IMG/VR virus record: IMGVR_UViG_3300010429_001737
Reading direction: 5' to 3' (one strand)
Length of the DNA: 64,000 bases
DNA from: a virus
Taxonomy: Duplodnaviria > Heunggongvirae > Uroviricota > Caudoviricetes
Part shown: piece by piece, positions 13,657 to 47,621 of the stretch
How the letters are laid out: each line of letters starts with the position of its first letter
How positions within the stretch are numbered: position 1 is the stretch's first letter
Translations under genes and position numbers: made by a program
The notes under the pieces: model-generated
The model's input: only the letters and a program-made list of their open reading frames with translations
Databases searched by the model: none
Told to the model about the DNA's origin: nothing

Positions 13657-16600
13657 ATGGTTAAAAAACGTAGCTTATTATCACTAGTATTCTTATTTGT
13701 GCTTTCGTTAGTATTATTAGCTACAACGATATATTCTGACGATATTTCTATTGACAAAACGCCTAGAGAAATAAAATTTGATTATAATTCAATCACATAT
13801 AAAAATCCTGATAATACATATACATCGTCAATATATTTTGATGCAATAAATCTTGACAAAATTGTTAATGTTACAAATAAAGGTGATGATATAAACATTA
13901 AATGGAAGAATTATGAGGTTGATATTATATTAAACGTTAAAGAAAAAAATAAGGAAAAGATTAAAATTGGTGATTTAAAGAATTCAAATCTTGAGTATGT
14001 GAAAACGATAAAGGCTAAGGGCGATGAATATGAATTCTTTTGGTTGTTAAATGATACATCGAAGAAAAGTTTTGATTTAGAATATGTAACAATAGAAGTT
14101 GTAAATAAAACTCCAATGACTATAATAGCTGAAAATACTCAGATAATAATGGGAGATGGGTTATATATTGATTTAAACGATTTAGTCGATTCTAATTATA
14201 CGCTTTCAAAACTGAATGAGAAAGAGATTAAGGTTGAGTCTAATGCAATACTTGGTTCTACATTTGATACAGATTCAATATTATTAGACCCGACTGTTAG
14301 AATAAATGTGTCGATGGATAACTATATTAGGGGTGATACCGAGCAATTTAAATCATATAATTATGGAGCTGCAACTTCTGTTTCGATTAATTATCCTGGA
14401 ACACTAAGAACTTTAATGTATTTCCCGCTAACATCGATACCTGCTAATGCTTCTATTTCTGAAGCTTTATTATACTTAAGAGCTATTAACGGGCCAACAA
14501 CATCTGCTAATATTTCCACATACCCATTACTAAAATCTTGGAACGAAGGGACTTCTTCTGCCGGCGCTAATTCAGCATTTATAAATGGGTCTACTTGGAT
14601 GGAGAGATGGTATGGTGATAATAAAAATGATGGTTGTAGTGGAAGTACTGACCCGGACTGGTGTACAAACGGAACTGGTGTTTCTGACTATAATGCTTCG
14701 TTGCAAGTTAATAATGTTATTAGGGCAAATGCAGGAGGAACATGGGTAAATTTGTCGATGCTTACATATGTTAATAAATCAGTTCATGGAGAAATGGAAT
14801 GGTATGGGATTGTCTTTTGGACAAATACTTCTGCATCATCAGGATATCAGTTTGCTTCAAGACAATATACAACTGTAACGACATATAGGCCATATGTTAA
14901 TATTACTTATAGTTTACCAAGTCCAATAACTAATTTAATTTTTCCAGTTAATAATACTAATACATCTAATGGATTATTTAATTTTACATGTAATGCGTCG
15001 ATAGATTCTTCTTTACCAGGAACCAATATTACTAAGTTAGTTATTTTTTATTCTAATGATTCAGCCGGGGTAAATTGGAAAGGAAATATGACGTTTAATG
15101 AAACGAGTGGTATAACTGCTCCGAACAAAACAATTCAACAGAACTGGAGTACTACTTTAACGACAAATGGAGTATATTATTGGGGTTGCGCCGTGAATGT
15201 TTCGTATGGCGGCACAGATTCTAGTGGTCTTGTTCAACCAACAGCTCCGCTAAGATTCATCTTTGATAATATAGGTCCAAATGTAACATATCAAGCTCCA
15301 ACACCAGATGGTGGATATGTGTCGAGCGTTGTAATTAATGTTTCAGTTAATGATAGCTTGAATGCTATAGATACTTGTATATTACAATGGAATTCGACAA
15401 CAGCATTAACAAATTACACAATGACAAAGTCGACGGGATATTGTAATTATACAATGTCTGTTACAACAGGAACATATTATTTTAAAGTTTATGCTAATGA
15501 TTCACTTGGTAATTTAGGAAACGCAAGTCTAAGAAATTTTACGTTTGATAATACACCGCCTAGTATTAACGTTACTTATCCATTAAGTCGTGTTTACATG
15601 GATTTATATAGTTATTCTCTTGGATTAAATGTGACAGCATCTGATGTTGGTTCAAGTTTGCAGACATTTAAGTATTCTTTAAATGGAGCGGCTAATACAA
15701 CATTTACTCCTAATATAACATTAACAACATTAGTTCCTGGGTTAAATAACTTAACTGTCTATGTTAACGATTCAGCTGGAAATATTAATTCATCCTCTGT
15801 TAATTTTACTTTACGTTTTACTCCTAAGATAAATAATACAATAATTGGTAACAGTTCTACAAATTATTCACGATACAATTTAACAAACGGTTTAGTTGGA
15901 TGGTGGAAGTTTGATGAGATAACAAATAATATTGCTTATGATACAAGTTTATATAGAAATAATGCTACGTTATTTCAGAGTATGCAAAATTTGTTAGTTA
16001 ACGGTGATTTTGAAAGTGGAACATGGGCAAATGCCGGCGACTGTTGTTGTGCTTCTTGTTCATGTGTTGCCGGGTCAAATTGTTCTGCAGGCGGAGGTGG
16101 CAGTAATTGTACTTGTGCAAACGGCGGTACTTGTTATTATTTAGCTAATGTCGCGACAGATAAAATCAATGGTGATTATTCACTTAATCTTACTGGAAAT
16201 AAATCATGTGCCTGTAATAATAAAGCTATGAGTAGTTTTACAATTAATAAAACTTATACATTAAGTTTTTGGTATAAAGATGTTTCTGGTCCAGATAGTC
16301 CAAGATATTGTATGTGGATTTCGGGGAGAAATGTATGCGACCCTGCAGAGACGATTTCTGTGTCAGATAACAATTGGCATTATTATCAGAAATCGTTTAA
16401 AATTTTAGATGGCACTACTGCTGCAGCTTTGTATTTATATGGCGGTAATGGTGCAACAACAGAATCTACTAATTTGTATGATGATGTTAGAATTGTTGAA
16501 GGTCCTGGTTGGGACATTAATGGCAAAATTGGAAATGCATTATTTGTTGCTGTAAATAATGCAACAATACCACATATACCTGCGTATAATTTTACAGGTG

Positions 16601-19600
16601 GTTTTTCAATGTCATATTGGGTTAAATTTAATATGGATATGACCTCTTCAAATCCATCAGTTGCTCAAAGATTAGTTAATAAGAATAACCAATGGATTAA
16701 TTACATTGGCACAGATTCCCGTAACTTAAGATTTTATTTGAATAATGGTACAACATGGGAAGATATGTCTTTATGGTCAAGTAAAACAAGTTGGAATAAG
16801 GGCCAATGGTATTTAGTAACATATACAGTTAGTGCAAGAACAAATCCAACAATAACTCTTTATATTGATGGTTCACAAGATAGTACAACATCAAAAACAG
16901 GAACTTGGCAAACATCAAGAGGTAATATTACAATAGGGTATGCATCTGAATTTACCACAGGTGAATTAAATGGTACAATTGATGAATTAAGGTTTTATAA
17001 TTATTCGTTGACAGCAACACAAGTTAGAGATTTATACCAAGTTACAAATCCAACTTTTCAAGAGTCTTCAAATACAACCATTACAGTAACAATAATAGAT
17101 GAAGATTCACCGGCATCTAGTTTATACTACCAATGGTTTGTCGGTCCAGTTTCTGTATTATCTGGTTTAGCTCAGAGCGTATTTAATTATGTTTTCACTC
17201 AACCGAGTACTAATGTTTATTTGATAATAAACGATTCCAATAATTATCAAGTTTTTCAGAATTGGACAATAAATACAACTTACGATAATCCAACAATATC
17301 TTATGTTTTACCAACACCAAGTGATAGTAGTGTACAAACTGGCACAACTGTTACAATAAATGTTTCAGCAAATGATACATCAGGTATTGATAAATGTATA
17401 TTACAATGGAATTCAACTAGTTCGATAAACAATTATACGATGACCCGGAGTGGAATATATTGCAATTACACAGTTTCAATTGCTACACCCGGTTATTACT
17501 ACTTTAAGGTTTATGCTAATGATACACTAGGAAACTGGTTTAATGAATCGTTAAGAACTATTTTAAAAAATAGTCCTCCTGTACAACCAACTGTTACTAT
17601 TATCCCTGCTACTGCGTATAAAAATTCAACATTAAATTGTACAGCTAATACAACAGATGTGGACGGACACACAATATCATATTTTTATCAATTTCTAACA
17701 ACTAATGGTACTATTGTGCAAGATTATGGATATACTGCACCAACAGAATATTGTTATCAAGAAACAGCAAATATTTCGACAGCATGTGGTGGATTAGACA
17801 CTGGAAAATATTGGTATACTACAGACACCACAACTAATTATAATTATATTAATTATTCTAAGCCGTCTTTTGCTTCAAACAATAGCCTTTGGCATGTTAA
17901 ATATTCAAGAACGGCTAATGTTACAGTTAACTATACAATTCCATCAAGTTGTTGGGAACAAAGCACTTTAACAATGTATTTCTATCTGTCCGGAACATCG
18001 GGGTCTGCATCTAATATGCAATTTGGTTGTAAGAATGCAACGGGACTTGTTGCTATAGAAGGACCTTTTTCGTCAACGACTATTACTCGTACAACAACCG
18101 GTAGTCAGAGCGAATTATATGATGGCAATTGGGATAATGCGATAAGTTATTATAGTAATGTATGGTATCGGAACGCCGTTACAGCTGGGGGTGGCGTACC
18201 ACACGGAGTCTTTGAAGAAGCAATGTATTGGGCAAGAGAAGGAAGTTCTAATCTCTTTGATTGTAATGCCAGTTCACTGTGTGTCGCGGGTGAAAATATT
18301 ACATGTAATGTTAAAGCATATGATGGTTATGAAAATAGTACTGTAAATAATGCAACAAGACAGATTTCAGCATATGGAGCAACAACATCAACGTATGTCA
18401 TCGACCAAGCGTTAAACACTAATGTTGGTATAAATAGACGAGGTTCATATGGAAGAAGTAACTCTAATGCTTTAACTCTTATTATTAACATAAACAGGAA
18501 ATTACAAGATTTAACACAGTTTGTCGATTATTTTATTGTTTCTGTAACCATTGAGAACTCAGAAAATATGTTTAGAAGATTGAGTCAATCTATAAATATT
18601 AATGTTTTAACGAGTAGAATGTTAAACTTACAGAAAATTGTATCACAATCATTCTCGATTGATAACTTTGTTAATAAATTAAGAAGTGTTTTCAGTATGA
18701 CAACTCAATCAATTGCTCTTACAGAGAATATCGATTCAATCTTATCAGGTAAAAGGTTTACTACGCAGAATATTAATGTCGTGGATGATGTTGGTATAAA
18801 ATCAAATTTTAAGAGAAGTAATTTTTTATCAATGACAATAAACAATTTTGCTAATCGACTATTAAAATTATTTAGAATTGAAACACAAAGTATTTTATTA
18901 TATGAAAACGAATCAGATATTTTCTCTGGAAAAAGATTAGTTAATCAAAGTATTAATATTACAGATTCGACTTTCGACGTTTATTCTGGAAAAAGAATGA
19001 CATTTACTCAATTATCGGTTACAGCTTTGTCATCAGAATTTTCAAAATTCTTTAGAGTTTCTGATGATGAGGTTTCATTCTTTGATGATGTTACGTATAA
19101 TTTATTAAGGAGGAGGTTTGTGTATCAAAATTTGTCGTTTTTGGATACAACCGGTCGAGAGTATTTCGGAATTAGAAATATTGACCAAATTATCGTCTTT
19201 TCGTTGTCTTCATATAAGCCGTCGAGTCTTTACAATTCCGTGTCTTTAATGATAGGAGTGTCTGAATCGATTTATGAAAAAACAGCTATGAAAAGAGTTC
19301 TTGAGGATTTATTGGAATTCATAGACTCTATTAATAGAAAATTGTTTGGCAGTCGAGTTATAAACGATGTGATTAATGTTAATGAAGATATGTCAAGAAG
19401 AACACTATTATTAAGGTTACTTACTAATGGTATTTCAGTTGGAGATAGTGTTAATATTAGATTATTCGGAAGTCGGGTTATTAGTCAGGAAGTAAATATT
19501 AATGATGACATTTTTAGACAAAGTATAGTTTCAAAAGATATTACCGAACGGGTTAATATTTCTATCGTTAATAACAGAACATATTTAGGAAATAGAATAA

Positions 19601-21159
19601 CTATTGACTTTTTCTCAATAGACGATTTAATAAGATTGCGATTCATGGGTATCAGATATTTAAATCAAGATATAAATATATTCGCAATTAAGTTAACAGG
19701 AGGTTCGTCTATATTTCAGAGTATTATTGAATTACTTGAATTTAATGATTATGTTTCAAGAACAGCGATGTTGTCAAGAGTCTCACAAATTTCTTTGTTG
19801 TTTAACGATATTACTAATCGTATAGCATATATGTTTTTAGGACAGACTGTCACGATAGATTTTTCTGATTCTGTTGTTAGACAGGGGGACGTTCATGTTT
19901 TAATGAGTGACAACATTGAATTTGATGATTTTCTTTCACGAAGTCTAAATTTAATTAGAAATAGTTATAATGGGATTTATATAAATAATATTGTTAATCG
20001 TATAACTTACTTATTTGTCGATAACGGATTGGGCATAAATTTTTATGATAGCATCGAAAGACTCATTACAAGAAATGTCTTTGTTTCCCAAGATATAACA
20101 TTTTATGATAGTGTTGCAAGATTAAATGCATTTGTTCGAAATTTGTACCAAATCTTAGTCTTTAACGAAAATATCCCGGGGATTGATGTTCTATATCAAT
20201 TTTATCTTGAAGTGCGACAAGATATCTTTTTTACAGCTAACGCACAGACAATAAGTGATATTTCAAAAGAGTTTTATGATATAATTACGTTAAATAATGA
20301 TGTTGTCAGATTTGCTTTCGTTTCAAGAGGGGCTAGTGATTCAGTAGAAATCTTTGATAATATTGATACTATGTTAGACATATTTAGAAAACCAAATGAG
20401 ATTGTTTCTTTTAGTATTATTACGAACAGACTTTCAAGTATGACACTACATATTAATATCATTCTTGATATAAATGAGCTTAGTGATAGAATAGCTGAAA
20501 TATATCGTATAGTTTCCGTACCTTTTAATATCTTTGACTATAGAATTCGTACTTTTTTTGGGTTATCAAGTTTAAACGATTCATTTATTATTACAAGTGA
20601 AAACGGCAGGACATATTTCGGCAATAGGATAGTCGACGAAACATTTGACGTTGATATAATGACTTTGCGTATTGCAACTTTGTCAAGATTGATTGTTGAT
20701 AGTATTACAATCGTCACCGCAACAACTGTTACTGCGGTTTATGTTGTGTCTGAGTTTTTTGTAACAATTGTTCAACAAATAACTATTAATGATATTGTAT
20801 CTCGAGCGACAAATTTATATGTTATATTCATTGATGTTATTTCTGTTATTATATCTGTCGTGTCAGGAGGCGGTGGTATAATTGGGCCCGGAGGAGGGGG
20901 CGGCGGATTAGAGGTTTTAAAGAACATACCCGAAAAAATAATAGAAATAATTTCTAGTATTACCTTTTTCACTAGAGGCAACACAATGTTAGTTTTGGCT
21001 CTCTTGAGCGTAATGACTTTCATTTTGGTTCTTTCGTATTATAAATACGAGAAGAGAACCAAAAATAAGAAATATAGAGCGATTGTTATTATAATAATGG
21101 GGCTGTTAGTGATATCTATCGTCTTATGTTTAATATATTTGCTATACTATGTCACATGA
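13657..21159 (+). CDS. giant surface protein (2500 aa): signal peptide, Ig-like (DxAGN-type) domains, LamG/ConA-like domain, Cys-rich segment, about 40 degenerate 19-20 aa repeats, poly-Gly linker, two C-terminal TM helices
   Basis: Signal peptide MVKKRSLLSLVFLFVLSLVLLA. Repeated units of the form ...NYT.S.D...C...VYANDSLGN.... LamG hallmarks LVGWWKFDE ... DELRFYNYSLTATQVRDLY. GGGGIIGPGGGGGG is followed by hydrophobic helices. Extremely dense in NxS/T. Paralogous to the 38424 gene. Confidence 0.8.
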   Translation: MVKKRSLLSLVFLFVLSLVLLATTIYSDDISIDKTPREIKFDYNSITYKNPDNTYTSSIYFDAINLDKIVNVTNKGDDINIKWKNYEVDIILNVKEKNKEKIKIGDLKNSNLEYVKTIKAKGDEYEFFWLLNDTSKKSFDLEYVTIEVVNKTPMTIIAENTQIIMGDGLYIDLNDLVDSNYTLSKLNEKEIKVESNAILGSTFDTDSILLDPTVRINVSMDNYIRGDTEQFKSYNYGAATSVSINYPGTLRTLMYFPLTSIPANASISEALLYLRAINGPTTSANISTYPLLKSWNEGTSSAGANSAFINGSTWMERWYGDNKNDGCSGSTDPDWCTNGTGVSDYNASLQVNNVIRANAGGTWVNLSMLTYVNKSVHGEMEWYGIVFWTNTSASSGYQFASRQYTTVTTYRPYVNITYSLPSPITNLIFPVNNTNTSNGLFNFTCNASIDSSLPGTNITKLVIFYSNDSAGVNWKGNMTFNETSGITAPNKTIQQNWSTTLTTNGVYYWGCAVNVSYGGTDSSGLVQPTAPLRFIFDNIGPNVTYQAPTPDGGYVSSVVINVSVNDSLNAIDTCILQWNSTTALTNYTMTKSTGYCNYTMSVTTGTYYFKVYANDSLGNLGNASLRNFTFDNTPPSINVTYPLSRVYMDLYSYSLGLNVTASDVGSSLQTFKYSLNGAANTTFTPNITLTTLVPGLNNLTVYVNDSAGNINSSSVNFTLRFTPKINNTIIGNSSTNYSRYNLTNGLVGWWKFDEITNNIAYDTSLYRNNATLFQSMQNLLVNGDFESGTWANAGDCCCASCSCVAGSNCSAGGGGSNCTCANGGTCYYLANVATDKINGDYSLNLTGNKSCACNNKAMSSFTINKTYTLSFWYKDVSGPDSPRYCMWISGRNVCDPAETISVSDNNWHYYQKSFKILDGTTAAALYLYGGNGATTESTNLYDDVRIVEGPGWDINGKIGNALFVAVNNATIPHIPAYNFTGGFSMSYWVKFNMDMTSSNPSVAQRLVNKNNQWINYIGTDSRNLRFYLNNGTTWEDMSLWSSKTSWNKGQWYLVTYTVSARTNPTITLYIDGSQDSTTSKTGTWQTSRGNITIGYASEFTTGELNGTIDELRFYNYSLTATQVRDLYQVTNPTFQESSNTTITVTIIDEDSPASSLYYQWFVGPVSVLSGLAQSVFNYVFTQPSTNVYLIINDSNNYQVFQNWTINTTYDNPTISYVLPTPSDSSVQTGTTVTINVSANDTSGIDKCILQWNSTSSINNYTMTRSGIYCNYTVSIATPGYYYFKVYANDTLGNWFNESLRTILKNSPPVQPTVTIIPATAYKNSTLNCTANTTDVDGHTISYFYQFLTTNGTIVQDYGYTAPTEYCYQETANISTACGGLDTGKYWYTTDTTTNYNYINYSKPSFASNNSLWHVKYSRTANVTVNYTIPSSCWEQSTLTMYFYLSGTSGSASNMQFGCKNATGLVAIEGPFSSTTITRTTTGSQSELYDGNWDNAISYYSNVWYRNAVTAGGGVPHGVFEEAMYWAREGSSNLFDCNASSLCVAGENITCNVKAYDGYENSTVNNATRQISAYGATTSTYVIDQALNTNVGINRRGSYGRSNSNALTLIININRKLQDLTQFVDYFIVSVTIENSENMFRRLSQSININVLTSRMLNLQKIVSQSFSIDNFVNKLRSVFSMTTQSIALTENIDSILSGKRFTTQNINVVDDVGIKSNFKRSNFLSMTINNFANRLLKLFRIETQSILLYENESDIFSGKRLVNQSINITDSTFDVYSGKRMTFTQLSVTALSSEFSKFFRVSDDEVSFFDDVTYNLLRRRFVYQNLSFLDTTGREYFGIRNIDQIIVFSLSSYKPSSLYNSVSLMIGVSESIYEKTAMKRVLEDLLEFIDSINRKLFGSRVINDVINVNEDMSRRTLLLRLLTNGISVGDSVNIRLFGSRVISQEVNINDDIFRQSIVSKDITERVNISIVNNRTYLGNRITIDFFSIDDLIRLRFMGIRYLNQDINIFAIKLTGGSSIFQSIIELLEFNDYVSRTAMLSRVSQISLLFNDITNRIAYMFLGQTVTIDFSDSVVRQGDVHVLMSDNIEFDDFLSRSLNLIRNSYNGIYINNIVNRITYLFVDNGLGINFYDSIERLITRNVFVSQDITFYDSVARLNAFVRNLYQILVFNENIPGIDVLYQFYLEVRQDIFFTANAQTISDISKEFYDIITLNNDVVRFAFVSRGASDSVEIFDNIDTMLDIFRKPNEIVSFSIITNRLSSMTLHINIILDINELSDRIAEIYRIVSVPFNIFDYRIRTFFGLSSLNDSFIITSENGRTYFGNRIVDETFDVDIMTLRIATLSRLIVDSITIVTATTVTAVYVVSEFFVTIVQQITINDIVSRATNLYVIFIDVISVIISVVSGGGGIIGPGGGGGGLEVLKNIPEKIIEIISSITFFTRGNTMLVLALLSVMTFILVLSYYKYEKRTKNKKYRAIVIIIMGLLVISIVLCLIYLLYYVT
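18400..20800 (+). repeat. degenerate array of about 19-20 aa repeats (around 40 units) in the C-terminal third of the 13657 gene
   Basis: Recurring units of the form F.R...Q.I.I.D.....R, for example FRRLSQSININVLTSRMLN / LQKIVSQSFSIDNFVNKLR / SGKRLVNQSINITDSTFDVY. This segment is depleted in NxS/T compared with the rest of the protein. Confidence 0.45.
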
Positions 21160-21166
21160 AGTTTAA

Positions 21167-21203
21167 CAACAATATTTATATACGAGATTTTGTTATAAAA
21201 AAT
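21167..21203 (+). promoter_or_regulatory. leader/promoter shared by the giant-gene paralogs (..ATATTTATATACGAGATTTTGTTATAAAAAAT-ATG)
   Basis: Near-identical to 38393..38423 (AAATTTTATATACTGGGTTTTGTTATAAAGAAT-ATG). Both are followed by ATGAGAA and a signal peptide. Confidence 0.5.
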
Positions 21204-24851: not shown

Positions 24852-24888
24852 TAGAATAATATATAAATAGTAAAGAATATAAGATAAT

Positions 24889-27723: not shown

Positions 27724-27724
27724 T

Positions 27725-37258: not shown

Positions 37259-37260
37259 AA

Positions 37261-38376: not shown

Positions 38377-38392
38377 TGATATTATGTGACAA

Positions 38393-38423
38393 ATTTTATA
38401 TACTGGGTTTTGTTATAAAGAAT
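38393..38423 (+). promoter_or_regulatory. leader/promoter of the second giant gene (paralogous to 21167..21203)
   Basis: See the 21167 entry. Confidence 0.5.
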
Positions 38424-41400: not shown

Positions 41401-44400
41401 TTAATTATCAAACTAATGTTAATTATACAGCTTCTGATGTAAACCTTCAAGCATGTTGGTATACAAATGATAGTGGTTTAATAAATACTACTGTTACATG
41501 TGGAACTAATATAACAGGTAAAACTTGGCCACAAGGATTAAATACTGTAACTGTTTATGCAAACGACTCTTATGGTGGGATAGGTTCAGCAACAAGAACG
41601 TTTAACATTGATACTATTAACCCGTTATTATCAATTGTTTATCCGCTAAGTGGAGCAAACTTCTCTACTACTACAATTGGTGTTAACTATACAGTAAGTG
41701 ATACTAATCTGAACACTTGTAAATGGACTAAAAACGGAGGTTCAACTAATACAACATTAACGTGTGGAACTAATATTACTTCTACGTTTACTGAAGGATT
41801 AAATACTGTAATAATATATGTGAATGACAGTGCAAACAATCAAAATTCTACTAATGTAACTTTTAGAGTTGATACAATCGGACCTATTTTAAATGTAACT
41901 TCACCTGGCAATAATCTTAGATTTAGAGACCAATACGATTATAAAGTTTTATTAAATGTTAGTGCAGCAGACGCCGGAGTCGGTGTAATTGGAAGTTATT
42001 GGTATTCTTTAAATGGAGCAACGAATGTTACATTTACGTCACCTACATATGTAACAGCTCAACTGAACAATAATACTATAAAGATATATGTAAACGATTC
42101 TCTAGGAAACACAGTAAATTCTTCTTTAATATTATTTAATTTGACTTTTACACCAACAATCACGGATATCAATATTTCTAATGCAAGCAATAGTTATTCT
42201 AGAAACTCAACGCTAGCTAATTTGATAGGTTGGTGGAAATTTGATGAAAACCATTTAAATATTTCGTATGATAGTTCTAGTAACAGAATAAACGGGTCAT
42301 TAGTTGGCGGGAATATATTAGCTTCCTTTGAAAATGGAGTAGATGGTTTTGCATTAGATTGTGGTGGTAGTCCAACATATACAAATGTTACAGGGTTAAT
42401 AGGCGACAGAGGTGTTTTATTATATTCAACGGGTGGAGATGGATTAGCATGTATGAACTCACCATATATAACTGATAAACCTGTTGCTCCGAATTATACT
42501 ATATTTTATTATGGAAAAGGCTGGGCTCGTGTCGGAATTTGGAACGGAAGTAAATATGTTTCTTATGTTGAAGATGTTGAAACTGGTTGTAGAACAAATT
42601 GCGGAGCCAACGACATTCCTACTACATGTAATGGTGGAGCGGCTTATACAGATTGGAAATTATTTAAAGTTGTAGCTTGTGAAAATGCATCTACATCACC
42701 TCAGCTTTGGGCATATGCTCGGCATGCTTCAAGAGGTATTGAAAATGGGTCATATTTTGATTTTATAACAGAAGGGCCAATTTGGTATAGCAAAGGTAAA
42801 ATCGGGAATGCAATTGTATTTGACGGGCATCAAAATTATGTAAGTATGCCGATGAGTGTAACAAGTCCTTATAGTTTTGCTACTAATAATTTTTCGATAT
42901 CTTTATGGTTTAAAACTAATCAGTCAACTGGCACTTTATTTATGGTTGGAAATAATAGTCAAGATTATTATTCTATGTATATGAACGGGGGTAGATTATA
43001 TTTTAACTATTCTACAGGGGATGTTCAAAGTATGAATTCTTCTACATTATATAATGATAACAGATGGCATCATGCCGTAGGAATTAGAAATGGTGTTAGA
43101 ACTGGTTTACTTTATGTCGATAATGTATTAGTTGCTGAAGATTCAGATAATGGTGGAAGCTTAACAGGGATAGATATTTTATCTAACACATTTTACATTG
43201 GACGAGATTATTCGGGAACCAGTTATTACAACGGGATGGTTGATGAGTTTAGAATATATAATACTAATCTAAGTGTCACAGACGTTAGTAATATATATTT
43301 AGCAACAAATCCAACATTCGAAGAATATTCAACTCTTGATGTTTCTGTAACTACGGCTGATACTGATACTAGTTTAGGTTCATTGTTTTATTCTTGGTAT
43401 GTAGAAGGAGTTAGTGTTTTAACAGGCACTGCTGAGACCCTTTTAACTTGGATATTTGATAAAAGAAGTTCAGTGGTTGAAGTTTATATAAATGACACCA
43501 ATGGGTATCAAACATATCAATCGTGGAACGTTAGTACTACTTTTATAAACCCAACGATTAATTTTACTTCGCCAACACCTGACAATAACACAATAACACG
43601 AACAACTAGTTTTATCGTTAATTTTACAGGAACTGAAGCTAATCGGAACTCTGGTTGGATTACAATGAATAATGTAAATTACACTGCAACTTGTACAGGA
43701 ACTTCTCCGTATGTTTGCAATAGAACGTTTACTGGATTAACTGAAGGAATGTATAATTATACAGCTTACGTAAACGATAGTGTCGGTAATCAAAATAATA
43801 CAGAAACTCGAAGATATGTCGTTGATTTAAGCGGTCCGAATTTTGTATTTAATTGGCAATCACCCGCTGATATAACAACTAATAACACCTTCGGTAGATA
43901 CATTAACATATCATACAATATAACAGACGCATGGTCTAATATTAATGCATCTACTGTTATTTTTTATTATAAAGGCAATTCCAGTTCAAGTAATGTTCAG
44001 TATTATCAAAACGGCTCAGCTCATAGTGGCTGGTTTTCTCCTGCGGAGTTTACTTCAAACGTAAGTAACACATGGCGATTTGATTTAAGTGACAATTATA
44101 TTTTGCCTGCTACTTATAATTTCGGTGAAGTGACTATGGAGAACACAGTTCATAGTGTTAATACTCTTTCTGGAAGTAATAATTACGTATGGATTGAATT
44201 ATTAAATGTTTCGAACACAAAGAATTATTCATTCTTCGAAGTAATGGCAAATTCTACGGCAGTAGCTGGAAACCTTAGAGTTTATTATTGTAATTCATCT
44301 TATTCAACGGGCAATCCTGTATTAAGTAGTAACTGTATTCAATTTAATACTTTGTCTGCAACACAAACATTTAATCATGTTCATACAACAAATTCAGCTC

Positions 44401-47400
44401 ATCAGATTATCTCGATGCCTATTAATATTGCATCTGGAAGTATTGGTTCGGTTAGAGTAACTTCGACGTCATATTTTTTATTACGAGGAACATTCGGAAC
44501 ATGGTATGTATATAACATTGCGAATACTTCAAGAACAAATGCTATAAAAACAACTGCAAATAATGGAAATGCATGGACTTCACAAACATATACTGTTGAT
44601 TCTCACCTGCATCAGTTTGACGGGAGTGATGCATTTAGATATTATGTATGTGCAAATGATACATCGGGAAATACCAATTGTTCAAGCGAAAGAAGTGATA
44701 TTTTCGATTACGCTAATTTACCGCCCTCAGCCCCTGTCATAATTAATCCACAACAAGGAAACTACAGTGGAAATATCACTATTAATTACACAGCCGCTGT
44801 TTCGCCTAATGCTTATGCTATTAGTTTTTATAATATTACATTATATAATGCTACAGATGAAACACTAGTTACAACTATCAGAACTAATAATTCAAATAAT
44901 CTAAGTTATATTTGGAATAGTGCTGGTGTTGGTGATTGGAATTATACTATTCATGTAAAGGCATGTGATATCAACGGATATTGTTCAATTGGAATGAGTG
45001 AAGAATTAGTTATAGAAAATACCGCGCCGAATGGCACGTTATTAACTCCATTAAATGATTCCATTACTTCTAATGTCTCAGTTAATTTTACAGCAAACGT
45101 TAGTGACAGTTTAACCGGAGTTAAAAATGCAACATTGAATGTTTATAAAAGTGGAACTCTATTTAATCAAAGTACCATAACATTATCAAGTGAACTTCAA
45201 GCAACAATTGGAATAATTGTTACATTAGTCGACGGCGTATATGATTGGTTTTATACTATATTTGATATGGCTGGAAATTCTTTTACAACTACAAACAATA
45301 CATTAACAATTGATACAATTTCTCCAGTAATAACAATTCATGCTCCAATTTCTAAAAACTATAATGTTAATGTTAGTTTGCCATTGAATTATAGTGTATC
45401 TGATTTGCATACACAAGCGTGTTGGTGGAATCTTGATGGTGATAGTAACAATACTATAACATGTGGAACTAATACGACATTTAATACGTCTTCTGGTGAA
45501 GAACATATATTATATTTTTACGCAAACGATTCAGCCGGAAATGTTGGTGTTAGTAATGTATCATTTACTACAAATCTTGGTCCACCATCCATTTCACTTG
45601 ATTATCCAACTGATGCTCAATGGGTCAATTCGGGCCTTAATTTGTTATTAAAGTACACGGCAGTAGATGAAGATGGCATTAGTGAATGTCAGTTGTGGTT
45701 GAAAAATGGAGTATGGCATTTGAATAATACCCAATATTCTCCGACTTCGGGACAACAGTACAATTTCACTCTTAATTTAACAGATAGTAGTTATGAATGG
45801 AACGTATGGTGTAATGATAGTGGAAACAATGGAGGATGGGGAAATCCATTATCAAATAACTCATTTATTATTGACTCAGCATATCCACAAATTTCGTTTG
45901 GAGATAATGTGTTAGCTAGTGAGTCAAATGTCTCAGCAGATTCAATATTTGTTAATGTTAGTGTAGTAGAAATAAATGAAGCTAATATTACATTTTATTT
46001 ATATAATGAAAGTTATTATCCAATAAATGTAACTACATCAACATCTAATTTAAGATATATTAATTACACTAGTTTGGATGATGGGTTATATAGATATAAC
46101 GTTACAATTACTGATTTAGCAAATAATAGAAATTCAACAGAGACTCGTGTTATACGATTAGATAATGAAGCTCCTACTTTCATTATTGATTCACCCGGAG
46201 CATTTACTGCATATCCATACAACAACAGCATTGGTTTAAATGTATCTGTAACAGATAATTACATAGGGACTGATACTTGTTTTTATAATATTTACGACGA
46301 GTTTGGATTATTAACAATTGACAATTCAACAATTCCTTGTATTAGTAATACTACATTTAGTTTACCAGACGGAGATGTTGACTATTTTATTACATTATAT
46401 GCAAATGATACAATAGGTAATTCGTTTGACACATCGTTTATGTTTAGAATAAGAACTGTTAAACCAGCTGTTAACTTGCAAAACCCATCGCTTAATCAAT
46501 ATATTAATAGAACAACAAATATTCAATTCAACTTCACCGTTAGTAATAGAGATATTGCATTTGATACCTGTCAACTCTGGGGAAATTGGACAGACATTTG
46601 GCATTTAAACCAAAGCGTAAATAGTATAACAAAGGATGTCGTTAAGAATTTTCCATCGTTACTTAATTTAAGTGAAGCTTCTTACAGTTATAATGTATGG
46701 TGTAATGATACTCTTAATAATAGTGATTTCGGAGCTAGCAACTATACATTTACACTAGATGTAACTTATCCAAGTGTTAATATTACAACAGTGAGCGGGA
46801 CAACATTTTCGTCTACTACATTTTCTCTTGGTTACAATATTAGTGATTTACATATGGGAACATGTGGTTATAAAATTGACGATGGTAGTTGGGTAGATAC
46901 TTTAACATGTAACGAATCATCAAAATCATTAACGTTAACAGCGGGAACATATAATATCTCTGTTAGAGGAATAGATTTAGCCGGAAATACAAACTCTAGC
47001 ACAATAACAATTACAACAACAGCTCCATCTGGACAACAAGGCGGTGGTGGAGGTGGAACTACTACACCGAAAGGAAACCGAAGTTGGGAAATGACTACCG
47101 AAACAGGAACACAGAAATATGAGTTAACAATGGTTAAGGGTGGTATCAGAAATCGAGAAATACATTTTACAAATAGTGAAGCAAACGAAACATTCGTTAA
47201 AGTTTCTTGTGAAGGAGATTTGTGTAAGTATATAACGTTAAGTGATACGGATATCACATTACCCGTTGGAATGGATATCGTGACAGTAATCGATATGACT
47301 ATAAAATTACCAGTCGACTTGGATGACGGTACATATGTTAATAATATTCGTGGGATTGACCAAGATAATCAAAACAAGATAGTTACTGTAGAAATAACAA

Positions 47401-47621
47401 TAGGCAAATCGGGATTACCTATCGAGGTATTTTCTAAATTAGGGGCAACAAAGAATATTGCCGGATTGAAAGTTCCATATATCCTATTTTCTATATTATC
47501 AGCAGCTTTAGTGTTTATAGCTTGTAACTTTTTCTTATTCAGAAAATTGAGAATTGGATTAGCTCTTGCGATAGTATTTGCAATAATCGCTTTCTTTGGT
47601 ATTTTATTAGTGATTCCATAA
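38424..47621 (+). CDS. giant surface protein (about 3065 aa): paralog of the 13657 gene with more than 10 Ig-like repeats, LamG domain, poly-Gly linker and C-terminal TM helices
   Basis: Start set at MRNIFKSNKIFIFTLLIITIFLMTVVYA, directly after the shared leader TTTTGTTATAAAGAAT. Tandem units of the form ...NYTVSDTN.QACK....TCGTNITG...VYVNDSAGN..... LIGWWKFDE ... DEFRIYNTNLSVTDVSNIY (LamG). QQGGGGGGTTTP and a C-terminal hydrophobic tail. Confidence 0.8.
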   Translation: MRNIFKSNKIFIFTLLIITIFLMTVVYALNNYAVFYVPNSANDTYISSVLSERNDNFGTESLLCISGQSASIQNAMIYFNFSGLPANATITSASLSLYGSSGSTGRNVFIYYASNDWDGSAATWFLRKPGVNWTTAGGDYDTLISTGTYVSGRKNYDVTNAIRNFVNGTRTNYGFFLTSDYNLGDLCFNQMDSLGSNYDPILNVTWDYPYPATALITPANGSTQSSRTVNFACNITFNGIDSNANITQADIMYFNDSSMDGDSLVDYISFNTTNGITPPNKTLYTNWTTTVPYDGTFYWSCYYDIVYENGNGFGLWADKDAQFTVDSVPPTVTFQTPTPVNGSRNITNSATINVTVSSASSLDTCTLQWNATTTLTNYTMTKSGTTCNYTIATTDGTTYYFKVFANTSIGNLGNTSLRTFRENAEPTNPNIALTPSTAYKNTTLTCSGSASSDADGDSVSYYYQFNDTTSIIQAYSTTNTFNCSAYAACAKGDTIYCNVKAYDSYEYSNINTTSVTISNSPPVIVSWNVSNSTWSISSGTNFSLYENATNGTYIFNVTSVSDGDSDTVLYDFYIDGSRKSTSYTQIWYSWVLGSYAVGYHNVTVYVNDSSNAITSKYWNVTIVDSIKPSVTVTSPIINKYYNYNTSINLNYTATDTHKQACWFNIDNGANTTITNCLNTTFNVSQGSHTVKLYVNDTSNNVNITSISFTADSINPQVAIVYPTNITYQTAVTAINYTVSDTNIQACKYSTNGGITNTTITCGTNITGLSASQGSNTWTVYVNDSAGNSNSSSITFSMDTQAPTITISIPPSDNIWYNYNTNVNFTATDTNLQACWWTNNSGVSNHTLATCGTNVTGQVWDSGTNTVKVYANDSFGNVNSATRIFKIDMIKPQINVTYPVNGSNLLTASLTLNYTVSDTNIQACKYSLNSGLTNTTITCGNNVSGLTAAQGTNIWTVYVNDSAGNVNSSSTTFSVDSQVPTVSIVIPTANGLWFNYQTNVNYTASDVNLQACWYTNDSGLINTTVTCGTNITGKTWPQGLNTVTVYANDSYGGIGSATRTFNIDTINPLLSIVYPLSGANFSTTTIGVNYTVSDTNLNTCKWTKNGGSTNTTLTCGTNITSTFTEGLNTVIIYVNDSANNQNSTNVTFRVDTIGPILNVTSPGNNLRFRDQYDYKVLLNVSAADAGVGVIGSYWYSLNGATNVTFTSPTYVTAQLNNNTIKIYVNDSLGNTVNSSLILFNLTFTPTITDINISNASNSYSRNSTLANLIGWWKFDENHLNISYDSSSNRINGSLVGGNILASFENGVDGFALDCGGSPTYTNVTGLIGDRGVLLYSTGGDGLACMNSPYITDKPVAPNYTIFYYGKGWARVGIWNGSKYVSYVEDVETGCRTNCGANDIPTTCNGGAAYTDWKLFKVVACENASTSPQLWAYARHASRGIENGSYFDFITEGPIWYSKGKIGNAIVFDGHQNYVSMPMSVTSPYSFATNNFSISLWFKTNQSTGTLFMVGNNSQDYYSMYMNGGRLYFNYSTGDVQSMNSSTLYNDNRWHHAVGIRNGVRTGLLYVDNVLVAEDSDNGGSLTGIDILSNTFYIGRDYSGTSYYNGMVDEFRIYNTNLSVTDVSNIYLATNPTFEEYSTLDVSVTTADTDTSLGSLFYSWYVEGVSVLTGTAETLLTWIFDKRSSVVEVYINDTNGYQTYQSWNVSTTFINPTINFTSPTPDNNTITRTTSFIVNFTGTEANRNSGWITMNNVNYTATCTGTSPYVCNRTFTGLTEGMYNYTAYVNDSVGNQNNTETRRYVVDLSGPNFVFNWQSPADITTNNTFGRYINISYNITDAWSNINASTVIFYYKGNSSSSNVQYYQNGSAHSGWFSPAEFTSNVSNTWRFDLSDNYILPATYNFGEVTMENTVHSVNTLSGSNNYVWIELLNVSNTKNYSFFEVMANSTAVAGNLRVYYCNSSYSTGNPVLSSNCIQFNTLSATQTFNHVHTTNSAHQIISMPINIASGSIGSVRVTSTSYFLLRGTFGTWYVYNIANTSRTNAIKTTANNGNAWTSQTYTVDSHLHQFDGSDAFRYYVCANDTSGNTNCSSERSDIFDYANLPPSAPVIINPQQGNYSGNITINYTAAVSPNAYAISFYNITLYNATDETLVTTIRTNNSNNLSYIWNSAGVGDWNYTIHVKACDINGYCSIGMSEELVIENTAPNGTLLTPLNDSITSNVSVNFTANVSDSLTGVKNATLNVYKSGTLFNQSTITLSSELQATIGIIVTLVDGVYDWFYTIFDMAGNSFTTTNNTLTIDTISPVITIHAPISKNYNVNVSLPLNYSVSDLHTQACWWNLDGDSNNTITCGTNTTFNTSSGEEHILYFYANDSAGNVGVSNVSFTTNLGPPSISLDYPTDAQWVNSGLNLLLKYTAVDEDGISECQLWLKNGVWHLNNTQYSPTSGQQYNFTLNLTDSSYEWNVWCNDSGNNGGWGNPLSNNSFIIDSAYPQISFGDNVLASESNVSADSIFVNVSVVEINEANITFYLYNESYYPINVTTSTSNLRYINYTSLDDGLYRYNVTITDLANNRNSTETRVIRLDNEAPTFIIDSPGAFTAYPYNNSIGLNVSVTDNYIGTDTCFYNIYDEFGLLTIDNSTIPCISNTTFSLPDGDVDYFITLYANDTIGNSFDTSFMFRIRTVKPAVNLQNPSLNQYINRTTNIQFNFTVSNRDIAFDTCQLWGNWTDIWHLNQSVNSITKDVVKNFPSLLNLSEASYSYNVWCNDTLNNSDFGASNYTFTLDVTYPSVNITTVSGTTFSSTTFSLGYNISDLHMGTCGYKIDDGSWVDTLTCNESSKSLTLTAGTYNISVRGIDLAGNTNSSTITITTTAPSGQQGGGGGGTTTPKGNRSWEMTTETGTQKYELTMVKGGIRNREIHFTNSEANETFVKVSCEGDLCKYITLSDTDITLPVGMDIVTVIDMTIKLPVDLDDGTYVNNIRGIDQDNQNKIVTVEITIGKSGLPIEVFSKLGATKNIAGLKVPYILFSILSAALVFIACNFFLFRKLRIGLALAIVFAIIAFFGILLVIP
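40300..41910 (+). repeat. in-frame tandem array of Ig-like domain repeats (about 264 bp units in an alternating A/B pattern, giving a super-period of about 530 bp) inside the 38424 gene
   Basis: DNA-level recurrence: ACAGTAAGTGATACTAATATACAAGCTTGTAAATATTC appears at about 40630 and again at about 41160, with a diverged copy at about 41690. Protein-level recurrence: NYTVSDTN.QAC...TCGTN.TG...VYVNDSAGN. Confidence 0.6.

What the first reader, a model, noticed from the sequence alone, without database searches (positions are those of the whole stretch)
13657..47621. Two paralogous giant surface proteins (2500 aa and about 3065 aa) sharing leader, Ig-like repeats, LamG domains and C-terminal anchors
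The 13657 and 38424 genes share nearly identical 5' leader/promoter sequences (TTTTGTTATAAA[A/G]AATATGAGAA) and signal peptides. They also share homologous Ig-like units (CILQWNSTTALTNYTMTKSTGYCNYTMS / CTLQWNATTTLTNYTMTKSGTTCNYTIA), LamG domains (GWWKFDE ... DE[LF]R[FI]YN), poly-Gly linkers and C-terminal TM helices. Both are saturated with NxS/T sequons, which suggests heavy N-glycosylation, typical of archaeal surface proteins. Proteins of this size are rare on viruses. They might be virion-associated adhesins or fibres, or host-range determinants. Alternatively the region could be a host surface-protein island captured by the element. The paralogy and the internal tandem repeats (40300-41910) suggest rapid diversification by recombination.
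Basis: seen in the sequence. Interest (0 to 1): 0.65.

Follow-up and report, generated by a model that had tools for sequence, protein, structure and literature searches.

The report
Giant lectin adhesins on archaeal replicon
Two huge membrane-anchored proteins, rich in N-glycosylation motifs and carrying several carbohydrate-binding heads, are conserved genes of a circular ~108.5-kb mobile element of (probably DPANN) archaea and most likely act as long adhesion fibres; similar proteins are known from DPANN cells, but their location on such an element and one of their stalk modules are new.

Summary
The two giant genes are real: A is 13657-21159 (2500 aa) and B is 38424-47621 (3065 aa). They are true paralogues (BLASTP E=7e-70; shared modules 44-45% identical). 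Both have a signal peptide, a CBM96/disaggregatase-like domain, Ig-like units, a LamG domain, a poly-Gly hinge and a C-terminal two-helix membrane anchor. N-x-S/T sequons are enriched (z=6.9 and 12.9).

One detail is wrong. The near-identical leader belongs to gene B and to the 21204 gene, not to gene A. It is an archaeal TATA promoter fixed at -29, shared by about a dozen genes.

Gene A's last third is not Ig-like. It is about 39 in-register 20-residue repeats, sequon-poor, with no Pfam family but about 150 related protein clusters.

The replicon is a circular ~108.5-kb element with archaeal expression signals. Two related elements carry positional orthologues of A and B with swapped heads. 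Only module-level relatives occur in cellular genomes, and all six are DPANN MAGs. A more distant relative carries a fusexin (Fsx1).

Best reading: membrane-tethered, glycan-binding adhesion fibres of an archaeal mobile element or virus. Whether they sit on virions or on cells is unresolved.

The parts
13058..13603 (+). Small secreted protein (181 aa) directly upstream of gene A; conserved partner of giant genes
   Evidence: 57% identical orthologue directly upstream of P0052 in L017. A second copy (41.5% identical) precedes another giant gene there. TATA box at -29.
13657..21159 (+). Gene A, 2500-aa giant surface protein
   Evidence: ORF. The exact protein is found on 5 contigs of 50-200 kb across three sources. 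TATA-like TTTAAATA at -27.
13657..13737 (+). A: N-terminal signal-like hydrophobic segment
   Evidence: KD hydropathy peak at aa 7-25.
14281..14967 (+). A: CBM96/disaggregatase-like domain (aa 209-437)
   Evidence: Custom HMM built from B, P0002, P0052 and three DPANN MAG proteins: 70.1 bits, E=1e-23. Not detected by Pfam directly.
15295..15822 (+). A: two Ig-like ~88-aa units (aa 547-722); a third lies at 17314-17580
   Evidence: Unit HMM, 76-83 bits.
15988..16446 (+). A: CBM_4_9 carbohydrate-binding domain with a Cys/Gly-rich insert (aa 778-930)
   Evidence: Pfam PF02018, 30.8 bits against a cut-off of 25.9.
16561..17025 (+). A: Laminin_G_3 / ConA-like lectin domain (aa 969-1123)
   Evidence: Pfam PF13385, 72.8 bits.
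18457..20796 (+). A: about 39 in-register 20-residue repeats (aa 1601-2380), rough consensus h-h-x-Q-x-I-x-I-x-D-D-I-x-R-R-x-x-G-x-R; sequon-poor and nearly Cys-free
   Evidence: Autocorrelation peaks at lags 20, 40 and 60. The register holds without indels. 151 related clusters at E<=1e-3. No Pfam family in nine relatives scanned. AF2 model has low confidence (pLDDT 42) but shows two strands per repeat.
20866..20907 (+). A: poly-Gly hinge (GGGGIIGPGGGGGG)
20983..21135 (+). A: C-terminal two-helix membrane anchor
   Evidence: Hydropathy peaks at aa 2443-2461 and 2475-2493. Conserved in P0052, 26% identity over A2257-2499.
21169..21210 (+). Promoter and start of the 21204 gene; the true partner of gene B's leader motif
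   Evidence: 86% identical to 38389-38430 over 42 nt (family D13). Exact motif match.
21204..29005 (+). Three further sequon-rich secreted proteins: C 21204-24851 (DUF2793), D 24889-27723 and E 27725-29005 (Laminin_G_3)
   Evidence: Pfam and PHROG hits. DUF2793 region matches phage and Halorubrum tailed virus proteins. Sequon z-scores are 8.3 (C), 6.1 (D) and 2.1 (E).
35054..38376 (+). Conserved pair directly upstream of B: a 734-aa Cys-rich membrane protein and a 371-aa Zn-PLC-like multi-TM protein
   Evidence: Orthologues in L005-L009. 18 relatives found. Weak PF00882 hit; the same family is precomputed for several relatives.
38389..38430 (+). Gene B promoter (TATA at -29) and start codon
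38424..47621 (+). Gene B, 3065-aa giant surface protein
   Evidence: ORF. Positional orthologue P0002 (4072 aa) in the syntenic locus L005.
38541..38990 (+). B: CBM96 / disaggregatase-related domain (aa 40-189) at the membrane-distal tip
   Evidence: Pfam PF24517, 56.8 bits (cut-off 26); PF06848, 36.1 bits (cut-off 33.9). 27-29% identical to the N-termini of ~1150-aa DPANN MAG proteins.
40062..42146 (+). B: eight consecutive Ig-like ~88-aa units (aa 547-1241) with a two-unit higher-order repeat
   Evidence: Unit HMM, 57-105 bits. DNA repeats with 264/531-nt spacing and 64-88% identity.
42825..43289 (+). B: Laminin_G_3 domain (aa 1468-1622)
   Evidence: Pfam, 83.3 bits. Weak laminin and pikachurin LG matches in PDB.
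45330..47018 (+). B: C-terminal Ig-like array (aa 2303-2865), including a Big_13 match
   Evidence: 41.5% identical to P0002 3263-4071.
47040..47057 (+). B: poly-Gly hinge (GGGGGG)
   Evidence: Conserved as G8 in P0002.
47457..47615 (+). B: C-terminal two-helix membrane anchor, preceded by a ~130-aa conserved domain
   Evidence: Hydropathy. Conserved in P0002.

Best explanation
A and B are paralogous, membrane-tethered, multi-lectin adhesion fibres. They are core genes of a circular ~108.5-kb archaeal mobile element or virus whose host is probably a low-GC DPANN archaeon.

Proposed mechanism:
1. Each gene is transcribed from an archaeal TATA promoter, probably as a nearly leaderless mRNA.
2. 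The protein is exported through its N-terminal signal sequence and probably N-glycosylated at many sequons.
3. It is held in a lipid membrane by a C-terminal helical hairpin behind a flexible poly-Gly hinge.
4. The stalk is an array of Ig-like beta-sandwich units (B), or a few Ig-like units plus a rod of ~39 twenty-residue repeats next to the membrane (A).
5. The stalk holds carbohydrate-binding heads (CBM96/disaggregatase-like, CBM_4_9, LamG) far from the membrane, where they bind glycans on another cell's surface.
6. Two paralogues with different stalks and heads, together with head-swapping between related elements, give different binding specificities.

Shown: the domain composition, paralogy, sequon enrichment, conservation and mosaicism in related elements, circularity, and archaeal-type expression signals.

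Inferred: export, glycosylation, topology, glycan binding, the adhesin role, and the identity of the membrane (virion envelope or element-bearing cell).
For: - Paralogy.
- Domains: Laminin_G_3 in both; CBM96 and Disaggr_repeat in B and CBM_4_9 in A; CBM96-like domain in A; at least 16 Ig-like units in B and 3 in A.
- Topology features: signal-like N-terminus, Gly runs and two C-terminal hydrophobic helices in A, B, P0002 and P0052.
- Sequon enrichment is confined to A, B, C, D and W_54706. Neighbouring Cys-rich membrane proteins are depleted.
- Conserved position in related elements, with mosaic heads. P0002 has an N-terminus like A's and B's, and a C-terminus like B's. P0052 has B-like heads and an A-type repeat-plus-anchor tail.
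- Circular genome: the end of NODE_92 overlaps its start by ~55 bp.
- Archaeal promoter at a fixed -29, with Shine-Dalgarno sequences only before internal operon genes.
- The nearest cellular relatives are all in DPANN MAGs.
- Large LamG/ConA lectin-like, sequon-rich proteins of DPANN archaea are already interpreted as host-attachment systems (PMC7443923).
Against: - No binding, localisation or expression data exist.
- Host assignment rests only on module-level similarity, GC content and promoter type.
- The fold of the 20-residue repeat is unknown (pLDDT 33 and 42).
- CBM-type domains can serve enzymes rather than adhesins, although no catalytic domain was detected in A or B.
- About 28 kb of the genome was not seen, so the nature of the element is open.
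Confidence: 0.6

Rival explanations
1. Virion proteins: A and B are spikes or fibres on a membrane-containing virion of a large archaeal virus, and they set host range.
For: - The genome is circular, ~108.5 kb, densely packed and almost unidirectional. It encodes a primase-helicase with an intein, an SNF2 helicase, an endonuclease I-like protein and HNH.
- Neighbouring gene C carries DUF2793 and matches phage and haloarchaeal tailed-virus proteins.
- Some relatives of the 20-residue repeat match phrog_12240.
- A distant relative of the element encodes a class II fusogen homologue, Fsx1.
Against: - No capsid, portal or terminase was detected among the window and L003 proteins scanned.
- IMG/VR and the phage collection hold no relatives.
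- Anchoring 2500-3065-aa proteins in a virion would need an envelope, for which there is no direct evidence.
Confidence: 0.3
2. Cell-surface proteins of a plasmid-like element: A and B are displayed on the carrier cell, where they glue it to a partner cell so that the element can spread. Spread could involve membrane fusion using the co-conserved Cys-rich membrane proteins (and fusexin in relatives). Alternatively, A and B could retarget the DPANN cell's attachment to its own host.
For: - A, B and a conserved block of about a dozen type-I and multi-pass membrane proteins form one module that is syntenic in L005-L009.
- L006 carries Fsx1 (E=2.3e-5 to PDB 7P4L).
- Published Fsx1 genes lie in integrated mobile elements and are proposed to mediate fusion-dependent DNA exchange (PMC9259645).
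- DPANN cellular genomes use the same modules in surface proteins.
Against: - No fusexin is detectable in the window itself.
- No conjugation genes (VirB4, TraG or a relaxase) were recognised.
- The only candidate ATPase (L003, 546 aa) is unclassified.
Confidence: 0.3
3. Ordinary cellular DPANN surface proteins: the region is part of a DPANN chromosome, and the element context is an artefact.
For: Domain modules and the overall kind of protein match DPANN cellular proteins.
Against: - The circular 108.5-kb assembly has a 55-bp end overlap. Two assemblies give contigs of almost the same length, 108,568 and 108,654 bp.
- No tRNA genes occur in the 64-kb window. None of the window, L003 or L016 proteins scanned or carrying precomputed Pfam hits is a recognisable housekeeping gene.
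- The replication genes are of mobile-element type.
- The conserved partner gene W_37261 has no relative in 185,579 representative genomes.
Confidence: 0.07
4. Glycan shield or exclusion coat: the giant proteins mainly mask the carrier's surface, for superinfection exclusion or protection, rather than bind a partner.
For: Very high sequon density and large extended size.
Against: Three to four distinct carbohydrate-binding modules per protein, and head-swapping between orthologues, are better explained by ligand recognition.
Confidence: 0.05

Closest known systems
Large LamG/ConA-like lectin surface proteins of DPANN archaea (e.g. nanohaloarchaeal strain-specific secreted proteins; PMC7443923)
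   Same: Secreted, very large, with LamG/ConA-like and PKD/Ig-like domains and many N-glycosylation sequons; predicted role in cell attachment. The nearest cellular relatives of the A/B modules are in DPANN MAGs.
   Different: A and B are encoded on a circular ~108.5-kb extrachromosomal element. They have a Gly-hinge plus two-helix C-terminal anchor. A carries an unclassified 20-residue repeat rod. No close full-length cellular homologue was found.
SPEARE proteins of Nanohaloarchaeota (recalled from the literature; named in PMC7443923)
   Same: Giant DPANN proteins thought to mediate attachment to a host.
   Different: The name stands for serine protease, adhesion and restriction endonuclease domains (from memory). 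No protease or nuclease domain was detected in A or B.
Bacterial giant repeat adhesins built from Ig-like arrays (Bap, SiiE and LapA types; from general knowledge)
   Same: Long tandem Ig-like stalks that present distal binding domains; Big_13 match in B.
   Different: Different export and anchoring: Sec signal plus a C-terminal TM hairpin, rather than T1SS secretion or cell-wall anchoring. Archaeal N-glycosylation sequons and different unit sequences.
Fsx1 fusexin-carrying mobile elements of archaea (PMC9259645)
   Same: A distant relative of this element family (L006) encodes an Fsx1 homologue next to orthologues of W_35054, W_37261 and W_52078. In both cases a mobile element carries a surface and membrane-protein module.
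   Different: No Fsx1 is detectable in the window. The published elements are integrated, haloarchaeal or metagenomic, and carry XerC/D, HerA and VirB4 genes, none of which was seen here.
Phage tail fibres and Ig-decorated virion proteins
   Same: Long repeat-built fibres with distal carbohydrate-binding domains. Neighbouring gene C has the phage-associated DUF2793 domain.
   Different: A and B have signal peptides and TM anchors. tblastn of A's shared core (aa 410-1308) and of A's 20-residue repeat region against the phage collection found nothing; B was not searched there.
Beta-solenoid repeat proteins (curli CsgA, ice-binding proteins), as an analogue for A's 20-residue repeats
   Same: Strict short period without indels and an alternating hydrophobic pattern. 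The low-confidence model has two strands per repeat, and its non-significant fold matches are dominated by beta-solenoids.
   Different: No significant structural or sequence match (best Foldseek E=0.49, TM<=0.24). The fold is not established.

Membership tests
Laminin_G_3 / ConA-like lectin domain (PF13385) | Profile match above Pfam's gathering score | tested here: met
   A scores 72.8 bits and B 83.3 bits against a cut-off of 27.6.
CBM96 / disaggregatase-related repeat (PF24517, PF06848) | Profile match above the gathering score | tested here: met
   B aa 40-189: CBM96 56.8 bits (cut-off 26) and Disaggr_repeat 36.1 bits (cut-off 33.9). A aa 209-437 matches only a custom profile of relatives (70 bits), not Pfam directly.
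CBM_4_9 (PF02018) | Profile match above the gathering score | tested here: met
   A aa 778-930: 30.8 bits against 25.9. Not found in B.
Bacterial Ig-like domain Big_13 (PF19077) | Profile match above the gathering score | tested here: met
   B: 31.8 bits against 27 for one unit. The other units were recognised only by an in-house unit HMM. A has no Big_13 hit.
DPANN giant lectin-like attachment proteins | Secreted, large, LamG/ConA-like plus Ig/PKD-like domains, many N-glycosylation sequons | tested here: met
   description in PMC7443923.
DPANN giant lectin-like attachment proteins | Encoded in the chromosome of a DPANN cell | tested here: not met
   The genes lie on a circular ~108.5-kb element. 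Host taxonomy could not be tested directly.
SPEARE proteins | Serine protease and restriction-endonuclease domains within the giant protein (definition from memory) | tested here: not met
   No such domains in the Pfam or NCBIfam scans of A and B. In relative L005 a Peptidase_S8 gene is a separate neighbour.
Fusexin (Fsx1/HAP2 class II fusogen) | Sequence or profile similarity to Fsx1 (PDB 7P4L) | tested here: not met
   A and B show none. No window protein is found by jackhmmer from the L006 Fsx1. The W_50110 family shows only a 33-column membrane-proximal motif at 19% probability.
Phage tail fibre / virion fibre | Homology to annotated virion fibre proteins, or presence in particles | tested here: inconclusive
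   A's C-terminal region has no PHROG hit. tblastn of A's shared core and of A's repeat region against 50,697 phage records found nothing. Full-length A and B were not scanned against PHROGs. Presence in particles cannot be tested here.
Archaeal N-glycoproteins | Glycans attached at N-x-S/T | not testable with these tools
   Only the enrichment of sequons over shuffles is shown.
PGF-CTERM / archaeosortase-anchored surface proteins | C-terminal PGF motif, a single TM helix and a basic tail | tested here: not met
   The C-termini read directly: no PGF motif, and two hydrophobic helices instead.
Pentapeptide or canonical LRR repeats (20 residues per turn), for A's repeat array | 5-residue sub-period, or the LxxLxLxxNxL pattern | tested here: not met
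   Autocorrelation peaks only at 20, 40 and 60. The spacing of conserved hydrophobic positions (2, 6, 8, 12, 16, 19) differs from LRR.

The most novel reading that the evidence does not exclude
The giant lectin fibres, the co-conserved block of Cys-rich membrane proteins and the Zn-PLC-like protein (plus a fusexin in relatives) together form an adhesion-and-membrane-fusion apparatus. It would belong to a previously undescribed family of ~100-kb circular elements of DPANN archaea. These would be either the first large enveloped DPANN viruses or plasmids that spread by induced cell-cell fusion.
Probability: 0.2. Interest if true: 0.85.

Novelty: new variant of a known kind. Interest (0 to 1): 0.58.

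Why it matters
DPANN archaea live attached to other cells. Their giant lectin-like surface proteins are thought to decide whom they attach to, but almost nothing is known about mobile elements or viruses of these organisms.

Here such proteins are core, head-swapping genes of a complete ~108.5-kb circular element with no relatives in virus, phage or reference-genome collections. They take up about 15% of its genome. If the element is a virus, these are candidate host-range determinants of a new virus group. If it is a plasmid, attachment specificity in DPANN archaea can be horizontally transferred.

The link to a fusexin-bearing relative gives a concrete place to look for prokaryotic membrane-fusion machinery. 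The 20-residue repeat array defines an unclassified but widespread fibrous module, with about 150 protein clusters.

Tried and rejected
- **Exact 41-mer of gene A in IMG/VR:** no match.
- **The search for related loci with W_37261, alone and as alignment A1:** nothing in IMG/VR, GTDB genomes or JGI metagenomes.
- **Word-indexed homologue searches:** full-length A returned only itself and P0002.
- **AF2 of the 20-residue repeat region:** single sequence gave pLDDT 33; a 12-row alignment gave pLDDT 42. Both are too poor to use. A pseudo-alignment of non-overlapping repeat blocks was misaligned by MAFFT and abandoned.
- **Foldseek of the poor model against PDB:** no significant match.
- **Fusexin in the window:** jackhmmer from the L006 Fsx1, a profile of the W_50110 family against PDB, and hhalign were all negative or marginal. 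Rejected as unproven.
- **Virus hallmark search:** PHROGs, Pfam, NCBIfam or PDB searches on candidate structural and ATPase proteins (L003 546-aa ATPase; 305- and 321-aa secreted proteins; W_53492) gave nothing usable.
- **tblastn against the phage collection:** the primase-helicase hit only inteins. The A core, the A repeats and relative P0014 gave nothing.
- **Repeat identity:** LRR and pentapeptide identities for the 20-residue repeat were rejected from the spacing of conserved positions.
- **Gene B start:** the GTG at 38376 was rejected in favour of the ATG at 38424, because the TATA box lies inside the GTG extension.
- **tRNA scan of the window:** none found.
- **Literature searches for a described DPANN or anaerobic-digester element of this kind:** none found.
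Full report

The window is ~31% G+C, and every ORF of at least 150 aa is on the + strand. Gene A (13657-21159, 2500 aa) and gene B (GTG 38376 or ATG 38424 to 47621) are intact ORFs.

A and B are true paralogues. BLASTP aligns A417-1308 with B971-1805 at 31% identity (E=7e-70). Shorter modules are 44-45% identical: A410-649 with B198-441, and A1212-1360 with B330-478.

Both proteins match Laminin_G_3 above Pfam's threshold. Both have a hydrophobic N-terminal signal-like segment, a poly-Gly run (A aa 2404-2417, B aa 2873-2878) and two C-terminal hydrophobic helices.

N-x-S/T sequons are about twice as frequent as in composition-matched shuffles: A has 90 against 49.8 expected (z=6.9), and B has 174 against 84.4 (z=12.9).

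The repeats at 40300-41910 belong to eight consecutive ~88-aa Ig-like units (aa 547-1241). They show a two-unit higher-order period (264/531 nt) and 64-88% DNA identity.

**2.

The motif TTTTGTTATAAARAATATGAGAA occurs exactly twice, at 21188 and 38408 (0.02 expected by chance). It therefore precedes the 21204 gene (gene C) and gene B, not gene A, whose upstream sequence is different.

The motif is the tail of a promoter, not a private leader. A TATA box (TTTATAWA) preceded by AACAATA starts exactly 29 nt before the ATG of about a dozen genes, among them 11186, 11944, 13058, 21204, 24889, 33175, 34106, 38424, 50110, 60506 and 60852. Gene A has TTTAAATA at -27. Genes internal to operons carry GGAGG-type Shine-Dalgarno sequences instead. 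This is the archaeal pattern of leaderless first cistrons. It also fixes B's start at 38424, giving 3065 aa.

The signal peptides are analogous but not similar in sequence.

Gene A is not sequon-saturated throughout. Its last ~1000 residues hold 11 sequons and 4 cysteines.

**3. Anatomy of the two proteins.**

B, from N- to C-terminus:
- signal segment;
- CBM96/disaggregatase-related domain at aa 40-189 (56.8 and 36.1 bits, both above cut-off);
- a 'CTLQWN' Ig unit;
- a weak, sub-threshold PKD-like segment;
- eight tandem Ig-like units;
- LamG at aa 1468-1622;
- a ~680-aa region with few recognisable domains;
- a second Ig-like array, including a Big_13 match;
- a G6 hinge;
- a ~130-aa conserved domain;
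- a two-helix anchor.

A, from N- to C-terminus:
- signal segment;
- a ~180-aa domain shared only with P0002;
- a CBM96-like domain at aa 209-437 (70 bits with a profile built from B, P0002, P0052 and three DPANN MAG proteins);
- Ig-like units;
- CBM_4_9 with a Cys/Gly-rich insert at aa 778-930;
- LamG at aa 969-1123;
- another 'CILQWN' Ig unit;
- a ~780-aa array of about 39 repeats of exactly 20 residues.

The 20-residue array keeps its register without a single indel. Autocorrelation peaks lie at lags 20, 40 and 60. Conserved positions include Q4, I6, I/V8, D10-11, I12, R14-15, G18 and R20. It is followed by the Gly hinge and the two-helix anchor.

The exhaustive representative search found 151 clusters with this repeat (23 at E<=1e-10). 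They occur in proteins of about 290-3254 aa. A minority have N-terminal hydrophobic segments and C-terminal anchors like A. Most have neither, and some match phrog_12240, a family of unknown function. Nine relatives scanned against Pfam showed no family covering the repeat.

Structure prediction failed to reach usable confidence (pLDDT 33 and 42). The better model does show two short strands per repeat. Its fold matches are non-significant but are mostly beta-solenoids. I take this only as a hint of a beta-rich rod.

**4. What replicon is this?**

The exact gene A protein lies on ENA contig ERZ795055 NODE_92 (108,568 bp), which starts at window position ~5862, inside the primase gene. The same contig carries the window's ThiF gene (2560-3246) at 105,212-105,898 and ends at window position ~5916. 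Its two ends therefore overlap by ~55 bp, which makes the sequence a circle of ~108.5 kb. A second contig of 108,654 bp is on record.

Recognisable genes are of mobile-element type:
- a Prim-Pol/AAA_25 primase-helicase split by a LAGLIDADG intein;
- an SNF2 helicase;
- an endonuclease I-like protein and an HNH endonuclease;
- UDG;
- a JAB/ThiF(E1)/small-protein triad;
- an SPFH (Band 7) protein.

The window has no tRNA genes. None of the window, L003 or L016 proteins scanned or carrying precomputed Pfam hits is a recognisable housekeeping gene.

No capsid, portal or terminase was detected among the proteins scanned. IMG/VR, the phage collection and 185,579 reference genomes hold no relative of the element. 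About 28 kb of the circle could not be retrieved. Virus versus plasmid is therefore open.

**5. Relatives and what they show.**

P0002 (4072 aa) lies on a 39.7-kb contig (L005) that is syntenic with window 29.5-57 kb (about 14 genes, 28-47% identical). It sits exactly where B sits. Its C-terminal 800 aa are 41.5% identical to B's. Its N-terminal 700 aa resemble both A's N-terminus (33%) and B's (43%), and it has at least 16 Ig units in a different arrangement.

P0052 (2733 aa) lies on a 92-kb contig (L017) that is syntenic with window 11.4-21 kb. The 181-aa protein W_13058 is 57% identical to its L017 orthologue, which lies directly upstream of P0052. P0052 thus occupies A's position. It keeps A's 20-residue repeats, Gly run and anchor, but carries B-like CBM96 and LamG heads. 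A second copy of the W_13058-like gene followed by another giant gene (at least 1683 aa) comes next.

Both giant genes are thus conserved positional components of an element family. Stalk and anchor are kept while heads are exchanged. That argues against a recently captured host island and for long-term cassette shuffling.

A genome-wide scan with the most distinctive shared module (the 'CxLQWN' Ig unit) found six loci, all in DPANN MAGs (Aenigmatarchaeota, Pacearchaeota, Nanoarchaeota and an uncultured archaeon). Identity was 29-46% at module level only. Three ~1150-aa MAG proteins share B's N-terminal CBM96/disaggregatase-like domain (27-29% identical), and one of them lies next to a DRG-type GTPase, so it is chromosomal. 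With 26-30% G+C in three of those loci, against ~31% here, a Nanoarchaeota- or Pacearchaeota-like host is the best guess. This is inference.

**6. The surrounding module.**

Between and after A and B lie further sequon-rich secreted proteins:
- C, with the phage-associated DUF2793 domain;
- D, with 19-aa tandem repeats;
- E, with LamG.

There are also about a dozen membrane proteins. Several are Cys-rich and significantly depleted in sequons: W_35054 z=-3.4, W_52078 z=-2.9, W_50110 z=-2.3.

The pair W_35054 and W_37261 (the latter Zn-PLC-like) directly upstream of B is conserved in 18 relatives. One of these contigs, L006, encodes a 658-aa protein annotated Fsx1. It aligns with the crystallised archaeal fusexin 7P4L over aa 59-510 (E=2.3e-5).

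Published Fsx1 genes sit in mobile elements and are proposed to drive fusion-dependent DNA exchange (PMC9259645). No fusexin is detectable in the window. W_50110 shares only a short membrane-proximal CxSC motif with it, at 19% probability.

**7. Mechanism and rivals.**

The best-supported reading (confidence 0.6) is that A and B are exported, probably heavily N-glycosylated, C-terminally tethered fibres. Their distal CBM96, CBM_4_9 and LamG heads would bind surface glycans of another cell.

Which membrane carries them is unresolved. A virion envelope (0.3) and the carrier cell's membrane (0.3), where they would serve element transfer or retarget DPANN attachment, are about equally likely. A purely chromosomal origin (0.07) and a passive glycan shield (0.05) are unlikely.

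**8. Comparison with known systems, and novelty.**

The proteins are the same kind as the large LamG/ConA lectin-like, sequon-rich surface proteins that DPANN archaea are thought to use for host attachment (PMC7443923).

They are not SPEARE proteins, since no protease or nuclease domain was found. They are not fusexins. They are not PGF-CTERM proteins.

Three things are new:
- the carrier, a complete circular ~108.5-kb element with no database relatives outside a handful of metagenomic contigs;
- the cassette-like head exchange between positional orthologues;
- the unclassified 20-residue repeat stalk.

I rate this a new variant of a known kind, with interest 0.58. The most novel reading not excluded is that the whole module is an adhesion-fusion apparatus of a new DPANN virus or fusion-transmitted plasmid family (probability ~0.2).

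Noticed in passing
window 1-64000 plus L016/L001 (ENA ERZ795055 NODE_92): The source is a complete circular genome of ~108.5 kb. NODE_92 starts at window ~5862 and ends at window ~5916, a ~55-bp end overlap. A second contig of 108,654 bp is on record.
   Followed up: yes
window, about a dozen sites, e.g. 13029-13036, 21175-21182, 38395-38402, 50081-50088: A highly regular promoter: AACAATA + TTTATAWA, with the TATA box starting exactly 29 nt before the ATG. This implies leaderless transcripts. Genes inside operons have GGAGG Shine-Dalgarno sites instead.
   Followed up: partly
L006 4227-6203 (Logan SRR10018917 contig, 23 kb): A distant relative of the element family encodes an Fsx1 fusexin homologue (PDB 7P4L, E=2.3e-5). 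It lies next to orthologues of W_35054, W_37261 and W_52078.
   Followed up: partly
window 50110-51801: 563-aa Cys-rich membrane protein, conserved in L005 and L008. Its membrane-proximal 'CESCTKWAMNIF' motif resembles the L006 Fsx1 stem 'CESCKSFAVSTLF'. Profile comparison gives only 19% probability, so it is a candidate divergent fusogen and remains unproven.
   Followed up: partly
window 29583-57097: There are two classes of surface proteins. A, B, C, D and W_54706 are sequon-rich (z=4 to 13). The Cys-rich membrane proteins W_35054, W_50110 and W_52078 are significantly sequon-depleted (z=-2.3 to -3.4).
   Followed up: partly
window 5254-8343: Prim-Pol plus AAA_25 primase-helicase, interrupted by an intein with a LAGLIDADG homing endonuclease (aa ~237-591).
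   Followed up: no
window 1932-3460: Adjacent JAB/MPN peptidase, ThiF/E1-like enzyme and a 73-aa protein. This looks like a ubiquitin-like conjugation or deconjugation triad; the small protein ends in ...HHSG, not GG.
   Followed up: no
window 10992-11141: 49-aa ORF with a precomputed NRDD hit (anaerobic ribonucleotide reductase family) in L001 and L002; sequence ...CERYSRIVGYLRPLEQWNVGK....
   Followed up: no
window 21204-27723: Gene C has DUF2793 and matches phage and Halorubrum tailed-virus proteins. C and D share 'YNETYA(L/I)(Y/W)(S/T)YNQT' motifs. D has 3.5 tandem copies of a 57-nt unit (YGKWWYNQTIAANTSI...) at 26842-27038.
   Followed up: partly
window 13058-13603; L017 9429-9995 and 19058-19663: A ~180-200-aa secreted protein precedes a giant gene three times, once here and twice in L017. 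This suggests a two-gene 'small partner + giant' cassette.
   Followed up: partly
L005 8178-9992; L017 18242-18988: Protease genes (Peptidase_S8; weak Peptidase_M10) lie immediately next to the giant genes in the relatives. They may process the giant proteins. No equivalent was recognised next to A or B in the window.
   Followed up: no
window 58123-60228: 701-aa protein with hydrophobic segments at both ends and about 30 copies of a ~14-aa coiled-coil-like repeat (LNLNIxEQAxLIxx); weak SMC-like matches.
   Followed up: no
window 37261-38376: Protein with a Zn-dependent phospholipase C-like N-terminal domain followed by several TM helices. It is conserved directly upstream of the giant gene or its position in 18 relatives.
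   Followed up: partly
L003 17343-18983 (- strand; about 8 kb beyond the window's end): 546-aa P-loop ATPase (GRIGSGKST) with a highly charged C-terminal tail. It has no usable match in Pfam, PHROGs, NCBIfam, PDB or the phage collection. It is a candidate packaging or transfer ATPase.
   Followed up: partly
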